DNA of 38,021 bases, from the UHGV virus genome UHGV-0070058; one strand, given 5' to 3'. A program made the translations under genes and the position numbers. Positions 9,822-13,982 of the stretch are shown here, one piece after another; positions within the stretch are counted from its first letter, which is position 1, and each line of letters begins with the position of its first letter. The notes below the pieces were generated by a model that ran no database searches, was not told the DNA's origin, and was given only the letters and a program-made list of their open reading frames with translations. The stretch comes from a virus.

Positions 9822-10070
9822 AGATAAAGTATTAGCTTAAAAATAAAGTATACCTAGCGAATATAATCTAGGACTAATTGTAATGCCCGAAATGATTGAT
9901 TGCGTGAGTAATAAAATTTTTCTTCCATTGTTGTGAAATCATTTAGCCATAAAGTTTATGCAGAGATTTTATTTTATTTTTGAGTTGATTTTTTTGTAAC
10001 GATCTGTATATTTCGCGCCTCTTGTCATATCAGTTATTTTTTTCATTATATTCATAACGTTGATTGAACT

Positions 10071-13000
10071 ATGACCACTGTGAATAAAAAGTTAAAAAAA
10101 ACTGCATCTGGCGCGATTACATGGTCGGTAATTGTTACCCAGATATTATCTCCAGTTTCTCTTTCTTTGATCCCGGCAAACAGTTTTGCATCATCTGATA
10201 ATAAAGATGTTACGCAAACTTATGCCAGTGATGAGCGTGCAAATAAAGTTGCCTCATTTGCAGCAAGTGCAGGTCAGAGTCTGGCGAATAATAATGCAAG
10301 TAGTTTTGCTGTAAATACTTTATCAACTCAGGCGACAAAAGAGATCGTCGACTGGTTGCAACAATATGGCAATGCGCGTATCAAGCTTAATGTCGATGAT
10401 TCTTTTTCCTTGAAGGATTCATCATTCGACTTTTTATATCCATGGCTGGATACTCAGGATTATGTGCTATTCAGTCAGACATCACTACATCGTACTGATG
10501 ACCGAAATCAGACCAATATTGGTTTGGGGATTCGTCATTTCACTCCTGATAACGCAATGTTGGGTGCGAATGTTTTCTATGATTACGATTTAAGTCGCAG
10601 TCACTCTCGTGCAGGTTTTGGGGTTGAGTACTGGAGGGATTATTTCAGGCTTGGTGTAAATACCTATTTTGGTCTATCTGACTGGAAGAACAGTCGGGAT
10701 ATTGATGATTATCTGGAAAGACCTGCAAATGGCTGGGATTTTTCTGCTGAAGGATGGCTACCTGCTTATCCGCAATTAGGGGCATCTATTCAGTTTGAAA
10801 AATATTATGGTAAAAATGTCGGGTTATTTGGAAGCGATAACCTGCAGGAAAACCCTTACGCAGTTACTGGGGGAATTTCTTATACACCAGTTCCTCTGAT
10901 TAAGTTTTCTGCACAGCATAAGCAAGGACAGAGCAACGTTCACGATACAACCTTCGGTGTTGAGTTTAATTATCGCCCGGGCGTTTCCCTGGCTGAACAG
11001 CTCAGCAGCGATAATGTTGCAGTTATGCGAGAAGTCCAGAACCGGCGTTATGATTTTGTTGAACGAAATAATAACATTGTTCTGGAGTACAAGAAAAAGC
11101 ATGCACTGAAAATCAGTTTGCCAGAGTCTATTCAGGGGGAGGGGGAATCAATCATCCCTGTAACACTGACAGTCAACAATGCCAGTGGTGGTATCAAGTC
11201 TGTACAGTGGAATGATAGTGCATTCACTGCGGCTGGCGGCAAGATCAGTGGAAATGGCACATCATGGCAGATCACTTTACCGGCTTATAAAAGCGAAGGT
11301 GTAAATTCGTGGAGTGTTGGAGCCACAGTACAGGATAACAGAGGCAACGTGTCCAACTATGCCGTGATGAATATTAGCGTTACTGATAGTGGTGTCTCGA
11401 CGGCTGATTCGTCTTTTACACTGGATGGAGATTCGTCTCCGACGATCTCTGCTGATAGCCAATCTACTTATCCTATAGTATTAAGCCTGAAAGATAGTAA
11501 CGGTAAGGCATTAACCGGACTGGCTGATGATATTGAAATGTCAGTGGAATTTACAGCAGATAGCAATAGTGCTCGACAGCGTGAAACGGTAACTGCCCCG
11601 TCATTAGGCGCGGTAGAGGAAATCTCTGCTGGGGTATATCGCTCTGTTCTGACTGCTGGTTCGCAGGCTGGTACGGTACGTGTAACCGCAAAAGTTCAGG
11701 GAAAAACCTTTACTCTGAATATTAAGCAGGCAGCCATCACTGATAGTGATGTATCGACAGCTGATTCGTCTTTTACACTGGATGGAGATTCGTCTCCGAC
11801 GATCTCTGCTGATAGCCAATCTACTTATCCTATAGTATTAAGCCTGAAAGATAGTAACGGTAAGGCATTAACCGGACTGGCTGATGATATTGAAATGTCA
11901 GTGGAATTTACAGCAGATAGCAATAGTGCTCGACAGCGTGAAACGGTAACTGCCCCGTCATTAGGCGCGGTAGAGGAAATCTCTGCTGGGGTATATCGCT
12001 CTGTTCTGACTGCTGGTTCGCAGGCTGGTAAGGTACGTGTAACTGCAAAAGTTCAGGGAAAAACCTTTACTCTCAGTATTAAGCAAACAGCAGCAACAGA
12101 ACCTGAATCTGAGGTCAGTGCTGTTTTAACCGCTGCACCAGCAGAGCAGGTAGTTGGTTACAATATCAATCTACAACTGGCAGTGAAGGATTCACAAGGA
12201 AATGCAATTACAGGTGATAATACTCTGAGCTTTTATGCCATTAACCAGGCTGAAGGAGTCGAGTTTGGGACTGTAACGGAAAAAGATGGTGTCTATAGCG
12301 CAACAGTAACTTCAAAACGAGCAGATAAGATTCGGATCGGTGTTAAATCGGATCGTCACGATTTCTCCGACCTTGAGAAAGAAATCTCCTTTATGGAAGA
12401 CCGAATTCAGTTCGCGTTCTCTCGTATTGAAGCCAGTAAAAATAATGCATTGGCTGATGGAAAACAACAGAATACAGTGACTGTAAGTCTTGCTGATCGT
12501 TTCGGCAATGTTGTTCCTAGTTATGCTGTTACGTTGTCCTTACCTGCGGGGATAACTCAAGTTGGTGGTGAACATGCAGTGTCAACTGACGAAAACGGTA
12601 ATGCTGTTTTTGCGTTAATAAGCTCCACTCCAGGTTCTTACGTGATTAAAGCTCATGCTGGGCCTCAGGTATCTACTGAGTTAACTGTGACCTTTGCATC
12701 AAATATGAGCGGAGCTTCACTGTCACTGACGCCTGAAAACAGTAGCTTAATTTCGAATATCCCTGCTAATGGTAAAGATGCTGCGGTATTGAATGTTCAG
12801 CTAACAAATAATACTAATGCGTCGGTTAATGGACAGAAGGTTCAGCTCATTACCTCATCTGAAGGGTTGTCTGTGCCGACAAATATCGTGACTGATTCAA
12901 CAGGGCATGTTTCTGTACCAGTTACAACGGTGAAAGCTGGTGAGTACACGGTAACTGCACGGGTGACTGATGGTTCTAATAGTGTGGAATCTGGCAGCGT

Positions 13001-13982
13001 TAAGTTAACTTTTGTGCCAGATATTGCTTCCGCAGAACTCACTATGAGTGTATCAAAACAGCAGATTGTGGCCGATAGCAGTGAAAGTGCAACAGTAGAC
13101 ATTCAGTTGGTTGATGCCAATAACAATGCATTTACCGGTGATGTAAATTTAACGATCACCCCATCGACGGGAGCATCATTGACCAGCAGTAAACTGCAGC
13201 TGGATGCTTATGGAAAGGCATCAACGCAGTTCACTGCATCGAAATCGGGCCAGTACACAATTCAGGCCGAGCATGTTCAGGATGGGAAACGCATAACTGC
13301 AAGCCAAAATATTGATGCCATGACGGATGTGAAGGATGCTGTGTTGGATATCACATCATCTGTATCTTCTGCTGTTGTGAGCGATTCCAACAATCTTACA
13401 TTTACGTTGCATCTGAAAAATACGTCAGGCGAAGCATTAAGTGGTCGAGCACTGAATATTAAGACCTCTGGACCGTCCAAATATGGTGCGTTGGTGGTTG
13501 ATAAAACCACAGTAACGACTGATGAGCGCGGCCAGGCTACGGTAAGCGTACATGGTCGAACGGCTGGTTCGTATAAATTAACGGCGACCTTAAACGAACT
13601 TGGTAGTGATGTTAGCGCGGTGAAATCATTCTCCCTGTACGCTGATGAAGCAAATGGGGTTCTGAGTCTTGAAAAAGACTATGGTTATGAGGTTAATGAC
13701 GGCTCTCCAACAGGTATTTATGCTCGATTTGTCGATCATTTTGGAAACCCATTGTCTGGTACGGTTGAGTTTTCTGCTGGTAGTGAAGATAGCCCAACCT
13801 CTCAACGCGTCAAAATGGAACCTGCTACAGTAACGTTAAGCTCGACAGGTAACGCTGCCTCGGAGTTCAGCACCTATGAAAGCGGTTATCACTGGATTAA
13901 GGCCAAAATAACAAATAGTAAAAAAACGTATGAGAAAGAATTAACAACTTTTGTTGTAAAACTTCCTGAAAAGGACAGTTAA
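10071..13982 (+). CDS. Inverse-autotransporter adhesin (intimin/invasin family) with a tandem array of bacterial Ig-like domains
   Basis: 1303 aa; N-terminal signal-like region; beta-barrel-like region rich in aromatic/Gly motifs (GVEYWRDYFRLGVNTYFG, GGISYTPV...FGVEFNYRPG); C-terminal repeated ~100-aa Big-like modules; AT-rich with its own AT-rich upstream region. Confidence 0.8.
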   Translation: MTTVNKKLKKTASGAITWSVIVTQILSPVSLSLIPANSFASSDNKDVTQTYASDERANKVASFAASAGQSLANNNASSFAVNTLSTQATKEIVDWLQQYGNARIKLNVDDSFSLKDSSFDFLYPWLDTQDYVLFSQTSLHRTDDRNQTNIGLGIRHFTPDNAMLGANVFYDYDLSRSHSRAGFGVEYWRDYFRLGVNTYFGLSDWKNSRDIDDYLERPANGWDFSAEGWLPAYPQLGASIQFEKYYGKNVGLFGSDNLQENPYAVTGGISYTPVPLIKFSAQHKQGQSNVHDTTFGVEFNYRPGVSLAEQLSSDNVAVMREVQNRRYDFVERNNNIVLEYKKKHALKISLPESIQGEGESIIPVTLTVNNASGGIKSVQWNDSAFTAAGGKISGNGTSWQITLPAYKSEGVNSWSVGATVQDNRGNVSNYAVMNISVTDSGVSTADSSFTLDGDSSPTISADSQSTYPIVLSLKDSNGKALTGLADDIEMSVEFTADSNSARQRETVTAPSLGAVEEISAGVYRSVLTAGSQAGTVRVTAKVQGKTFTLNIKQAAITDSDVSTADSSFTLDGDSSPTISADSQSTYPIVLSLKDSNGKALTGLADDIEMSVEFTADSNSARQRETVTAPSLGAVEEISAGVYRSVLTAGSQAGKVRVTAKVQGKTFTLSIKQTAATEPESEVSAVLTAAPAEQVVGYNINLQLAVKDSQGNAITGDNTLSFYAINQAEGVEFGTVTEKDGVYSATVTSKRADKIRIGVKSDRHDFSDLEKEISFMEDRIQFAFSRIEASKNNALADGKQQNTVTVSLADRFGNVVPSYAVTLSLPAGITQVGGEHAVSTDENGNAVFALISSTPGSYVIKAHAGPQVSTELTVTFASNMSGASLSLTPENSSLISNIPANGKDAAVLNVQLTNNTNASVNGQKVQLITSSEGLSVPTNIVTDSTGHVSVPVTTVKAGEYTVTARVTDGSNSVESGSVKLTFVPDIASAELTMSVSKQQIVADSSESATVDIQLVDANNNAFTGDVNLTITPSTGASLTSSKLQLDAYGKASTQFTASKSGQYTIQAEHVQDGKRITASQNIDAMTDVKDAVLDITSSVSSAVVSDSNNLTFTLHLKNTSGEALSGRALNIKTSGPSKYGALVVDKTTVTTDERGQATVSVHGRTAGSYKLTATLNELGSDVSAVKSFSLYADEANGVLSLEKDYGYEVNDGSPTGIYARFVDHFGNPLSGTVEFSAGSEDSPTSQRVKMEPATVTLSSTGNAASEFSTYESGYHWIKAKITNSKKTYEKELTTFVVKLPEKDS
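11382..12095 (+). repeat. Near-perfect 357-bp direct tandem duplication (2 copies) inside the adhesin gene
   Basis: Copy 1 at ~11382-11738 and copy 2 at ~11739-12095 are almost identical at nucleotide level; each encodes one 119-aa Ig-like module (DSSFTLDGDSSPTISADSQSTYPIVLSLKDSNGKALTGL...). The track's identical antisense ORFs at 11277-11462 and 11604-11819 confirm it. Confidence 0.9.

What the first reader, a model, noticed from the sequence alone, without database searches (positions are those of the whole stretch)
9822..13982. Prophage-borne 1303-aa inverse-autotransporter (intimin/invasin-family) adhesin inserted between P and the nin region
Seen in sequence: directly after replication gene P and a ~250-bp very AT-rich region lies a 3.9-kb AT-rich gene encoding a protein with a long signal-like N-terminus, a beta-barrel-type region rich in aromatic/Gly motifs, and a C-terminal array of Ig-like modules. 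It is convergent with a lipoprotein esterase and ends at a strong bidirectional terminator. Established knowledge: intimin/invasin-family inverse autotransporters are surface adhesins usually chromosomally encoded; lambda carries ren at this position. Inference: this is lysogenic-conversion cargo, an adhesin or surface protein possibly affecting host colonisation or phage superinfection; a large adhesin at this location in a lambdoid prophage is unusual.
Basis: partly seen in the sequence, partly recalled or inferred. Interest (0 to 1): 0.6.

Follow-up and report, generated by a model that had tools for sequence, protein, structure and literature searches.

The report
Prophage-carried FdeC-type surface adhesin gene
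A lambda-like prophage of E. coli carries, right after its replication gene P, a self-contained gene for a large FdeC-type surface adhesin; about one in ten sequenced E. coli strains, including the pandemic ST131 clone, have it, yet no study of it turned up.

Summary
Window 10071-13982 (+) is an intact 1303-aa ORF. It has an N-terminal inverse-autotransporter beta-barrel (Pfam IAT_beta E=8e-101; solved invasin and intimin barrels E=1e-73 and 7e-63). About ten Ig-like domains follow, with no LysM domain and no C-type-lectin cap, which is the FdeC-type architecture.

It is not FdeC itself: the barrel is 56% identical and the passenger 28%. It reaches no NCBIfam named-adhesin cutoff.

The gene is a discrete 4.2-kb cassette (9812-14014). 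It has a 27%-GC upstream region and its own strong terminator, and it sits between P and the nin region of a ~45-kb prophage at argU. The same cassette is in 561 of 5426 complete E. coli genomes, directly after P in 558 of them, in prophages with different attachment sites. No isolated phage in INPHARED carries it.

The neighbouring esterase is a separate cassette. A 357-bp tandem repeat varies from one to four copies between strains. dN/dS of 0.08-0.37 indicates purifying selection.

Best reading: a lysogenic-conversion (moron) adhesin, a new, unnamed member of a known family. No function has been tested.

It is common, not unusual. Interest is moderate.

The parts
9120..9821 (+). Replication gene P, the left neighbour of the cassette. 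Homology with lambdoid phages that lack the adhesin stops at 9811, ten bases before the P stop codon.
   Evidence: Pfam Phage_lambda_P E=6e-62; blastn boundary against phage 4A7; matches to P alone end at query position 242 = window 9811.
9812..14014 (+). The inverse-autotransporter cassette: upstream region, ORF and terminator, which move together as one unit.
   Evidence: Phage 4A7 (no adhesin) is homologous up to 9811 and again from 14015. Prophage L019 (adhesin, no esterase) is homologous over 9500-14021 and again from 15368.
9822..10070 (+). 249-bp upstream region at 27.3% GC, the probable regulatory region. It holds promoter-like sites at 9985-10012 (TTGATT-16-TATATT) and 10022-10049 (TTGTCA-16-CATTAT). 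Nucleotide homology with the chromosomal E. albertii homologue starts at 10005, 66 bp before the ATG.
   Evidence: GC content; hexamer scan, not enriched over shuffles; alignment with E. albertii; nucleotide homology starts at 10005.
10071..13982 (+). The 1303-aa FdeC-type inverse autotransporter (type Ve secretion) ORF.
   Evidence: ORF; Pfam; PDB sequence matches; identical RefSeq protein WP_115429784.1 annotated 'inverse autotransporter beta domain-containing protein'; dN/dS 0.08-0.37.
10071..10190 (+). Predicted long Sec signal peptide (aa 1-40): MTTVNKKLKKTASGAITWSVIVTQILSPVSLSLIPANSFA|SS.
   Evidence: Read from the translation. It aligns with the FdeC N-terminus from aa 15. No signal-peptide predictor was available.
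10239..11072 (+). Beta-barrel translocator domain (aa 57-334).
   Evidence: Pfam PF11924, E=3e-102, covering model positions 3-279 of 279. Invasin barrel 4e1t E=1e-73 and intimin barrel 4e1s E=7e-63 over aa 97-341. 55.9% identical to the FdeC barrel.
11091..11384 (+). First Ig-like domain after the barrel (aa 341-438), equivalent to intimin D00.
   Evidence: Intimin D00-D0 structure 6tqd, E=1e-9 over aa 342-442; weak Big_13 match.
11382..12085 (+). Tandem repeat of 357 bp, 2.0 copies, encoding two 119-aa Invasin_D3-like Ig domains (aa 439-557 and 558-676). Copy number is one to four in other strains.
   Evidence: TRF, 97% matches; 96% nucleotide identity between the copies; Invasin_D3 E=2e-10 for each copy; one, two or three copies in related loci; protein length classes 1184, 1303, 1421 and 1540 aa.
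12099..13979 (+). Six further Ig-like (Big_1 / Invasin_D3) domains (aa 677-1303). The terminal domain is also Ig-like; there is no C-type lectin cap.
   Evidence: Segment-wise Pfam scan. AlphaFold2 model of aa 985-1303: all-beta, three domains, pLDDT 78. Foldseek best matches: intimin D0-D1, FdeC 4e9l, InvD 5ldy, invasin 1cwv, InvE 5n40.
13994..14014 (.). Bidirectional intrinsic-terminator-like hairpin (9-bp stem, 7 GC pairs) that ends the cassette.
   Evidence: Pattern scan on both strands; folding energy -24 kcal/mol, z = -5.0; retained with the adhesin gene in prophages that lack the esterase.
14015..15367 (-). Separate esterase cassette: a predicted lipoprotein alpha/beta hydrolase (CDS 14019-15062, minus strand) with its own upstream region.
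   Evidence: Pfam BD-FAE E=8e-45; PHROG 3341 'esterase'. Present without the adhesin in eight isolated lambdoid phage records. Absent from six adhesin-bearing IMG/VR loci. Boundaries.
15510..15965 (+). ybcN / NinB-like gene, the start of the nin region and the right neighbour of the cargo slot.
   Evidence: PHROG 72, NinB/Orf, E=6e-52; annotated ybcN.

Best explanation
This is a lysogenic-conversion cassette (a 'moron') encoding an FdeC-type inverse autotransporter, that is, a type Ve secreted adhesin.

How it most likely works, inferred by homology with intimin, invasin and FdeC: the protein is exported by Sec through a long signal peptide. Its N-terminal 12-stranded beta-barrel is inserted into the outer membrane. 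The C-terminal passenger is threaded out through the barrel. The result is a rod of about ten Ig-like domains on the surface of the lysogen, which promotes adhesion to surfaces, host matrix or other cells, and biofilm formation.

The cassette carries its own AT-rich regulatory region and its own terminator. It can therefore be expressed from the repressed prophage independently of the pR operon in which it sits, probably conditionally and under H-NS-type silencing, as reported for FdeC.

The cassette spreads by modular recombination among lambdoid prophages. The stalk length varies through gain and loss of a 119-aa repeat.

Shown here: family, architecture, cassette boundaries, distribution, purifying selection. 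Inferred: expression in the lysogen, surface display, adhesive function, ligand.
For: Protein identity and architecture:
- Barrel: Pfam IAT_beta E=8e-101; solved invasin and intimin barrels E=1e-73 and 7e-63.
- Passenger: Ig-like domains throughout. The model of the last three domains is all-beta and best matches intimin, FdeC, InvD and invasin structures.
- The protein is colinear with FdeC over 1248 aa at 33% identity.

It is a cassette:
- Sharp boundaries at 9811/9812 and 14014/14015.
- 27%-GC upstream region, and an ORF at 43.7% GC against 55% for P.
- Strong terminator.
- Nucleotide homology with a chromosomal E. albertii homologue starts 66 bp before the ATG. That stretch includes the TTGTCA-16-CATTAT promoter-like site, so the gene appears to travel with its own promoter.

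It is phage cargo:
- The window is a ~45-kb lambdoid prophage at argU with a full head, tail and lysis gene set.
- The cassette also sits in a prophage at icd in ST131 strain JJ1886.
- Carrier prophages have different cI and O alleles.
- It is present in 561 of 5426 complete genomes and joined to P in 558.
- It is found in 37 IMG/VR viral contigs and in PHROGs families 7803 and 16344.

It is maintained by selection: dN/dS is 0.08 for the barrel and 0.07-0.37 for the passenger domains, window allele against ST131 allele.

[quoted passage not shown] FdeC binds collagen and is regulated by H-NS and temperature (as summarised and cited in PMC4943183).
Against: - No expression, localisation or binding data exist for this protein, and I found no paper on it.
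- The promoter-like hexamers are no more frequent than in shuffled sequence.
- No isolated, sequenced phage in INPHARED carries the gene, so it is not shown that cassette-bearing prophages still make virions.
- The two tip domains have no close relatives outside the family, so no ligand can be inferred.
- In the published assays IatB, IatC and IatD did not bind ECM proteins or cause autoaggregation (PMC6714894). Adhesion of a new family member to any given substrate is therefore not assured.
Confidence: 0.7

Rival explanations
1. The protein serves the phage rather than host colonisation. A dense layer of long Ig-like rods on the lysogen could shield outer-membrane receptors and reduce superinfection by other phages. 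Alternatively it could clump lysogens so that released phage meets fewer susceptible cells.
For: - Lambdoid prophages commonly carry surface-modifying exclusion genes (own knowledge: Cor, Lom, Bor).
- The cassette sits in an early-region slot that holds varied accessory genes in related prophages and phages.
- The distal half of the passenger is far more diverged between alleles than the barrel (dS 0.31 against 0.056; 89% against 98% amino-acid identity).
- Stalk length varies from one to four repeats. This is the kind of variation expected for a surface structure under changing selection.
Against: - There is no match to any PADLOC defence model.
- dN/dS is well below 1 in every domain, so there is no sign of an arms race at the tip.
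- All characterised relatives are adhesins or biofilm factors (PMC6714894, PMC4943183).
- No inverse autotransporter is known to me to exclude phage.
Confidence: 0.1
2. The gene is a silent or decaying passenger that hitch-hikes on successful prophages and gives no phenotype.
For: - Many E. coli autotransporter and inverse-autotransporter genes are not detectably expressed in laboratory culture. IatB protein, for example, was not detected even with leuO overexpression (PMC6714894).
- The upstream region is very AT-rich and so a likely H-NS target (inference).
- Some copies are interrupted or truncated, or have IS66 next to them.
Against: - A 3.9-kb ORF is kept intact in hundreds of genomes.
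- Synonymous divergence reaches 0.31 while dN/dS stays at 0.07-0.37. That pattern is not expected for a gene free of selection.
- Repeat copy-number changes keep the reading frame.
Confidence: 0.12
3. The adhesin and the convergent esterase form one functional two-gene module. For example, the esterase might modify a surface glycan that the adhesin binds.
For: The two genes are adjacent and convergent, share one terminator region, and are joined in 431 of 5426 genomes.
Against: They assort independently.
- Eight isolated lambdoid phage records carry the esterase at this position with no adhesin.
- Six IMG/VR loci carry the adhesin followed directly by ybcN, with no esterase.
- The homology breakpoints fall exactly between the two genes.
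Confidence: 0.05

Closest known systems
FdeC (EaeH), the chromosomal intimin-like adhesin of E. coli; compared here with Sakai ECs_0336, 1417 aa
   Same: - Same architecture: long signal peptide, no LysM, IAT beta-barrel, about ten Ig-like (Big) domains, no C-type lectin cap.
- Colinear alignment over 1248 aa.
- The FdeC passenger crystal structure 4e9l is among the best fold matches.
- Both belong to the 'FdeC-type adhesin' subfamily defined in PMC4943183.
   Different: - Only 33% identical overall: barrel 55.9%, passenger 27.6%.
- FdeC lies at a fixed chromosomal site next to ykgA. This gene lies in lambdoid prophages after P.
- This gene has a near-perfect 119-aa tandem repeat with copy-number variation.
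- It is a paralogous family, not an FdeC allele.
Intimin (Eae) and Yersinia invasin
   Same: The translocator barrel is homologous (E=7e-63 and 1e-73 against the solved barrels). The D00-like first domain matches intimin D00-D0.
   Different: - No LysM domain and no C-terminal C-type-lectin-like receptor-binding domain.
- The NCBIfam intimin model scores 329 bits against a cutoff of 1400.
- No LEE or Tir context.
Yersinia pseudotuberculosis InvD and InvE (PDB 5ldy, 5n40)
   Same: These are inverse autotransporters whose solved passenger fragments are Ig-like domain arrays. They are among the best fold matches to the modelled tip. That InvD ends in an Ig-like tip without a lectin cap is from my own knowledge.
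   Different: Fold-level resemblance only (16-18% identity). They are chromosomal Yersinia genes. InvD's reported binding to antibody Fab regions (own knowledge) cannot be transferred on this evidence.
Lambdoid morons and the P-to-nin cargo slot (Lom, Bor/Iss; the ren-qacE-recombinase-esterase set in phage 4A7; emrE-ybcK-ybcL-ybcM in K-12 DLP12; prophage-borne Eib adhesins)
   Same: - An accessory gene with its own regulatory region and terminator, sitting between phage operon genes and present or absent among otherwise similar phages.
- The same prophages also carry lom and iss.
- Phage 4A7 holds other cargo in the same slot. The DLP12 gene order is from my own knowledge.
   Different: - At 3.9 kb it is much larger than typical morons.
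- It is a type Ve adhesin. The prophage-borne Eib proteins are trimeric (type Vc) autotransporters (own knowledge).
- No isolated phage in INPHARED carries an inverse autotransporter of this family.

Membership tests
Inverse autotransporter (type Ve secretion) family | Intimin/invasin-type beta-barrel translocator domain (Pfam PF11924) | tested here: met
   PF11924 E=8e-101, 337.6 bits against a cutoff of 22.3, covering model positions 4-279 of 279. Solved invasin and intimin barrels E=1e-73 and 7e-63.
Inverse autotransporter (type Ve secretion) family | Inverted order: barrel N-terminal, passenger of IgSF-fold domains C-terminal | tested here: met
   Barrel at aa 57-334, followed by about ten Ig-like segments up to aa 1303. 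The tip model is all-beta Ig-like.
Inverse autotransporter (type Ve secretion) family | N-terminal Sec signal peptide | tested here: inconclusive
   A basic n-region, a hydrophobic h-region and an SFA|SS site are visible in the sequence, and the region aligns with the FdeC N-terminus. No signal-peptide predictor was available.
Inverse autotransporter (type Ve secretion) family | Passenger displayed on the cell surface; BAM/TAM-dependent assembly | not testable with these tools
   Needs expression and surface-labelling experiments.
FdeC-type adhesin subfamily (as defined in PMC4943183) | Barrel plus an array of Big domains, without LysM and without a C-type lectin cap | tested here: met
   No LysM or Intimin_C match in Pfam, for the whole protein or by segment. 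The terminal domain is Ig-like in the model. Colinear with FdeC.
FdeC orthologue (fdeC / eaeH) | High identity to FdeC and the conserved chromosomal locus next to ykgA | tested here: not met
   33% identity overall and 55.9% in the barrel. The FdeC passenger structure 4e9l matches at only E=7e-17. The locus is a prophage, not the ykgA region.
Intimin | NCBIfam intimin equivalog score; LysM; C-terminal lectin-like Tir-binding domain | tested here: not met
   NF033627 scores 329 bits against a cutoff of 1400. No LysM or Intimin_C domain.
IatC, SinH/IatB and YchO/IatA (named E. coli and Salmonella inverse autotransporters) | NCBIfam equivalog cutoffs | tested here: not met
   IatC N-terminal model 391 bits against 2400; SinH 321 against 999; YchO/YchP 272 against 508. 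The lengths of the named E. coli proteins in PMC6714894 (465, 725, 1415, 1747, 2359, 2934 aa) do not correspond, apart from FdeC, which is excluded above.
Moron / lysogenic-conversion cassette of a lambdoid phage | A discrete insertion between conserved phage genes, present or absent among related phages | tested here: met
   Boundaries at 9811/9812 and 14014/14015 against phage 4A7. P without the cassette is found in roughly 2900 further genomes (3456 match P, 558 have the junction).
Moron / lysogenic-conversion cassette of a lambdoid phage | Own terminator and base composition different from the flanks | tested here: met
   Hairpin at 13994-14014, -24 kcal/mol, z = -5. ORF 43.7% GC and upstream region 27.3% GC, against 55% for P.
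Moron / lysogenic-conversion cassette of a lambdoid phage | Own promoter | tested here: inconclusive
   Two promoter-like sites (9 of 12 hexamer matches each) are present but not enriched over shuffles. The proximal site is conserved in the chromosomal E. albertii homologue.
Moron / lysogenic-conversion cassette of a lambdoid phage | Expressed from the repressed prophage and changes the host phenotype | not testable with these tools
   Needs transcript mapping and mutant phenotypes.

The most novel reading that the evidence does not exclude
This phage-mobilised adhesin may be an overlooked eighth E. coli inverse-autotransporter family that matters for the success of lineages such as ST131. It could act as a colonisation factor whose stalk length (one to four repeats) is tuned to the O-antigen or capsule. 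It could also act as a phage-encoded surface shield that alters superinfection. Either way it would show directly that lambdoid phages spread type Ve adhesins horizontally, against the earlier view that horizontal transfer in this family is limited (PMC3008723).
Probability: 0.15. Interest if true: 0.7.

Novelty: new member of a known kind. Interest (0 to 1): 0.4.

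Why it matters
If the protein is expressed, about 10% of complete E. coli genomes carry a large, surface-exposed and probably antigenic adhesin that this search did not find in the published accounts of E. coli inverse autotransporters. The carriers include ST131 strains such as JJ1886 and 81009.

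- The 2019 census of E. coli inverse autotransporters lists JJ1886 but tabulates only fdeC, yeeJ and iatA-D for it (PMC6714894, Data Set S1).
- The two family-wide surveys do not mention phages (PMC3008723, PMC4943183).

The finding also gives a concrete vehicle for horizontal spread of type Ve adhesins and a natural series of stalk-length variants. It adds a candidate to adhesin, vaccine-antigen and prophage-cargo catalogues.

It does not reveal a new mechanism.

Tried and rejected
1. The ST131 copies first looked like a different barrel fused to the same passenger, because megablast and BLASTP covered only 67% of the query. A direct protein comparison showed the N-terminus is 98% identical. 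The partial coverage is an artefact of a third repeat copy.

2. I first took NZ_AP022087.1 as the source of the window. Its cI and O alleles differ. The window is 100% identical to NZ_CP102244.1. This also explains why no tRNA was found in the window: the window starts just inside the prophage, next to argU.

3. Searching the large protein collection with the 237-aa E. albertii fragment returned only partial proteins and no full-length orthologue.

4. Literature searches gave nothing on this gene. I tried accession numbers, 'prophage-encoded' with 'inverse autotransporter', 'intimin-like' with prophage and ST131, and invasin with prophage and ST131. Candidate papers mentioned only FdeC, YeeJ, IatC or SinH.

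5. PADLOC gave no defence-system match. Rfam gave no RNA family in the window.

6. The 'plasmid' hits are not evidence of plasmid carriage. The one inspected is a 237-kb linear record with the same P-adhesin-esterase-ybcN prophage context, flanked by IS elements.

7. One IMG/VR locus (L020) has the adhesin 1.5 kb from an integrase and no O or P. It looks like a deleted prophage and was not pursued.

Full report

Yes. The six-frame ORF list shows a single uninterrupted ORF at 10071..13982 on the + strand, 1303 aa with an ATG start. Only short ORFs lie on other frames inside it.

- It follows O (8104-9123) and P (9120-9821). Pfam gives Phage_rep_O at E=1e-33 and Phage_lambda_P at E=6e-62.
- The P-to-ORF spacer (9822-10070) is 249 bp at 27.3% GC.
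- The ORF is 43.7% GC, against 55% for P and 50.4% for the window. 'AT-rich' is therefore strong for the spacer and moderate for the gene.
- Downstream, on the opposite strand, lies a 347-aa alpha/beta hydrolase (14019..15062; BD-FAE E=8e-45). Its N-terminus ends in ...MSVGSC, which fits a lipobox by my reading of the translation.
- Between the two stop codons is a 9-bp, 7-GC hairpin (13994-14014) with T-runs on both strands. It folds at -24 kcal/mol, z = -5.0, and no shuffle folded as well.

**2. What the protein is**

*Barrel.* Pfam places an inverse-autotransporter beta-domain at aa 57-334, with nearly full model coverage and E about 1e-101. A sequence search of the PDB matches aa 97-341 to the solved barrels of Yersinia invasin (4e1t, E=1e-73) and EHEC intimin (4e1s, E=7e-63). 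It also matches aa 342-442 to intimin D00-D0 (6tqd, E=1e-9).

*Passenger.* I cut it into ~100-aa segments and scanned each against Pfam.

| Residues | Result |
|---|---|
| 341-438 | D00-like domain, weak Ig-like match |
| 439-557, 558-676 | Two 119-aa Invasin_D3-like domains |
| 677-1195 | Five Big_1 / Invasin_D3 domains |
| 1196-1303 | Weak Big_1 match (E=0.006) |

Neither the whole protein nor any segment matches LysM or the intimin C-type-lectin domain.

*Tip model.* An AlphaFold2 model of aa 985-1303 has mean pLDDT 78 and pTM 0.42. It was built from a shallow alignment of alleles only. It is all-beta, with three beta-sandwich domains. Its best Foldseek matches in the PDB are intimin D0-D1, the FdeC passenger (4e9l), InvD (5ldy), invasin (1cwv) and InvE (5n40).

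*Summary of architecture.* Long signal peptide, barrel, about ten Ig-like domains, no LysM and no lectin cap. This is the 'FdeC-type adhesin' architecture of Heinz et al. (PMC4943183).

**3. Which inverse autotransporter?**

No NCBIfam named-family model reaches its cutoff. IatC N-terminal scores 391 bits against 2400, intimin 329 against 1400, SinH 321 against 999, and YchO/YchP 272 against 508.

I fetched FdeC from O157 Sakai (ECs_0336, next to ykgA). The two proteins align colinearly over 1248 residues at 33% identity. The barrel is 55.9% identical and the passenger 27.6%. The protein is therefore an FdeC paralogue, not an allele.

RefSeq calls it only 'inverse autotransporter beta domain-containing protein' (WP_115429784.1). 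PHROGs holds it as families 7803 and 16344, both 'unknown function'.

The last two domains (aa 1087-1303) were searched against 1.84 billion cluster representatives. Only 60 gave E<=0.001. The strong hits are this family itself or fragments of it. The rest are about 30%-identical Ig domains of giant adhesins. The tip therefore gives no clue to the ligand.

**4. Where it sits**

The window is 100% identical to E. coli O7:H15 strain ST70 (NZ_CP102244.1, 3,600,850-3,638,870, reversed).

It is a ~45-kb lambdoid prophage at the argU tRNA-Arg site. The gene order is int, exo-bet-gam, kil, repressor, cro-like, YdaT, O, P, [adhesin], [esterase], ybcN-ninE-rusA-Q, lysis genes, terminase, head, tail, J, tail fibre. 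A truncated tail-fibre assembly gene lies next to appY. By my knowledge of the K-12 map this is a full-length relative of the cryptic prophage DLP12.

The gene is thus inside the early right operon of an apparently complete prophage, not next to a remnant.

**5. It is a discrete, mobile cassette**

- Isolated phage 4A7 carries ren, a qacE/emrE-like gene, a small ORF and a recombinase in this slot. Homology to it stops at window 9811, ten bases before the P stop, and resumes at 14015, just after the hairpin.
- Prophage L019 has the adhesin but no esterase. Homology to it runs 9500-14021 and resumes at 15368.
- So there are two independent cassettes: the adhesin (9812-14014, including the upstream region and terminator) and the esterase (14015-15367).

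Distribution in 5426 complete E. coli genomes:

| Feature | Genomes |
|---|---|
| Adhesin gene present | 561 |
| P-adhesin junction contiguous | 558 |
| Adhesin-esterase junction contiguous | 431 |

The genomes without the second junction have IS66-family insertions or no esterase.

The 3' end of this P allele matches in 3456 genomes. About one in six such prophages therefore carries the cassette.

In ST131 strains JJ1886 and 81009 the cassette lies in a different lambdoid prophage, which also carries iss. In JJ1886 that prophage is integrated at icd. Carrier prophages differ in repressor allele (81% or 98-100% identity to the window's) and in O allele (66% or 95-100%). This is the pattern expected from modular exchange among lambdoid phages.

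IMG/VR holds 37 loci with the gene, a few of them from metagenomes.

INPHARED has no isolated phage with it: megablast finds none, and tblastn finds only two unrelated matches at about 30% identity. Eight isolated phage records carry the esterase alone, among them 4A7, 4C10, D2, 1W, 3W, Perceval and PhiR47_2.

**6. Origin**

Among one genome per species (GTDB representatives), the pattern-based scan found only two loci. This scan finds close relatives only.

- One is a 357-bp contig labelled Moraxella osloensis that is 99% identical to the repeat. It is probably contamination.
- The other is in E. albertii NBRC 107761. It is 80% identical over aa 1-237, where the contig ends.

The E. albertii gene follows six ORFs: a GntR-aminotransferase regulator, an ABC transporter (binding protein, ATPase, two permeases) and an aldehyde dehydrogenase. 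By size and order this is the ydcR-ydcSTUV-patD region (own knowledge). That is a non-phage context.

Nucleotide homology between the two genes starts 66 bp upstream of the ATG, at window 10005. The shared stretch includes the promoter-like TTGTCA-16-CATTAT, which reads TTGTCG-16-GATTAT in E. albertii. Further upstream the sequences diverge.

No E. coli genome has a patD-adhesin junction. The closest E. coli relative of the E. albertii gene is the prophage copy, at 77% nucleotide identity.

This fits capture of a chromosomal Escherichia gene together with its proximal promoter. The direction of transfer is an inference.

**7. Variation and selection**

Tandem Repeats Finder reports a 357-bp unit in 2.0 copies, 97% matched, at 11382-12085. 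The two copies are 96% identical in nucleotides.

Other strains have one, three or four in-frame copies. This gives protein lengths of 1184, 1303, 1421 and 1540 aa. A 1064-aa deletion variant also exists. Draft assemblies often break inside the repeat.

Window allele against the ST131 allele:

| Segment | dS | dN/dS |
|---|---|---|
| Barrel | 0.056 | 0.08 |
| 626 codons after the repeats | 0.31 | 0.20 (0.07-0.37 per domain) |

The gene is therefore under purifying selection along its whole length. It is also a mosaic, with a recombination break at or near the repeats.

**8. How it most likely works**

By homology with intimin, invasin and FdeC, the steps are: Sec export, insertion of the N-terminal barrel in the outer membrane by BAM with help from TAM, hairpin export of the passenger, and display of a rod of Ig-like domains.

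Relatives tested experimentally (FdeC, IatB, IatC, IatD) are surface-located and promote biofilm. FdeC binds collagen, is induced on host-cell contact and is controlled by H-NS and temperature (PMC6714894; PMC4943183 and the references it cites).

The cassette's own AT-rich upstream region and its terminator fit expression independent of pR. The terminator would have to be read through by antiterminated transcription for Q to be reached in lytic growth; that step is inference.

I put 0.7 on 'lysogenic-conversion adhesin'. The family and cassette parts are close to certain. The expression and adhesion parts are inferred.

Rivals:
- A phage-serving surface shield or exclusion function (0.1).
- A silent passenger (0.12), which the selection data argue against.
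- A functional adhesin-esterase pair (0.05), which independent assortment argues against.

**9. Novelty**

The kind of protein is well known, and the gene is annotated generically in RefSeq and PHROGs. I found no paper that names or studies it.

The reference census of E. coli inverse autotransporters reports seven groups and tabulates only fdeC, yeeJ and iatA-D. It included JJ1886, which carries this gene (PMC6714894). I cannot tell whether the gene was merged with the fdeC group or missed.

The two family-wide surveys do not mention phages, and one concluded that horizontal transfer is limited.

The verdict is a new, unnamed member of a known kind, with a noteworthy mobile location and a wide distribution. 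It is not a new mechanism.

Noticed in passing
window 11382-12085, compared with L004:7335-11600: Synonymous divergence between the window allele and the ST131 allele jumps from 0.05 in the barrel and D00 domain to 0.31 after the tandem repeats. The repeats therefore mark a recombination junction between a conserved N-terminal half and a diverged distal half. Draft assemblies also tend to break at the repeats.
   Followed up: partly
window 14015-15367 (esterase CDS 14019-15062, minus strand): The predicted lipoprotein BD-FAE esterase is its own cassette. It is 98% identical in eight isolated lambdoid phage records (4A7, 4C10, D2, 1W, 3W, Perceval, PhiR47_2), where ren, a qacE/emrE-like gene and a recombinase occupy the adhesin's place. 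Its function in a phage is unknown.
   Followed up: partly
L007:8001-8711 (E. albertii NBRC 107761, contig NZ_BBMY01000075.1): A chromosomal homologue, 80% identical over aa 1-237, lies directly after a ydcR-ydcSTUV-patD-like gene set and shares the proximal ~66-85 bp of the upstream region. The contig ends inside the gene, so its passenger and downstream context are unknown.
   Followed up: partly
window 5577-6440 (minus strand): A 287-aa DUF7946 protein is encoded next to the repressor gene (6507-7235), where lambda carries rexAB (own knowledge). Other carrier prophages with the 81%-identical repressor allele lack it. It could be an immunity-region accessory or defence gene.
   Followed up: no
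window 17533-20292: There is a second cargo region, between Q and the holin gene. It holds a lipocalin-family gene (17533-18057, minus), a YbgA-family gene (18250-19209, plus) and a helix-turn-helix protein gene (19561-20292, plus). GC falls to 32-36% over 19001-20500. Other relatives carry a porin gene or nothing in this slot.
   Followed up: no
window 15327-15500: The leader of the nin region is about 91% identical to a phage 82 record (X92588.1). That record annotates -35 and -10 signals and a 'possible regulator-binding site' there. A promoter-like site at 15328-15356 falls in the same stretch. A 33-codon annotated ORF overlaps the start of ybcN.
   Followed up: no
L008 (CAXORL010000232.1, 357 bp, labelled Moraxella osloensis): A 357-bp contig in a Moraxella osloensis assembly is 99% identical to the adhesin's repeat unit. 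This is most likely E. coli contamination of that assembly.
   Followed up: no
L047 (NZ_AP026904.1, 'plasmid pMY504-2', 237 kb, linear): A record labelled as a plasmid carries the same P-adhesin-esterase-ybcN arrangement. Several IS elements lie upstream, the O and integrase genes are frameshifted, and the late region is deleted so that J directly follows the holin gene essD. It may be a mislabelled or rearranged chromosomal piece.
   Followed up: no
L006 (JJ1886, NC_022648.1:1266140-1270405) and PMC6714894 Data Set S1: JJ1886 was one of the 126 genomes in the published census of E. coli inverse autotransporters. It carries a 1421-aa copy of this gene, but the census table lists only fdeC, iatA and iatB for it.
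   Followed up: partly
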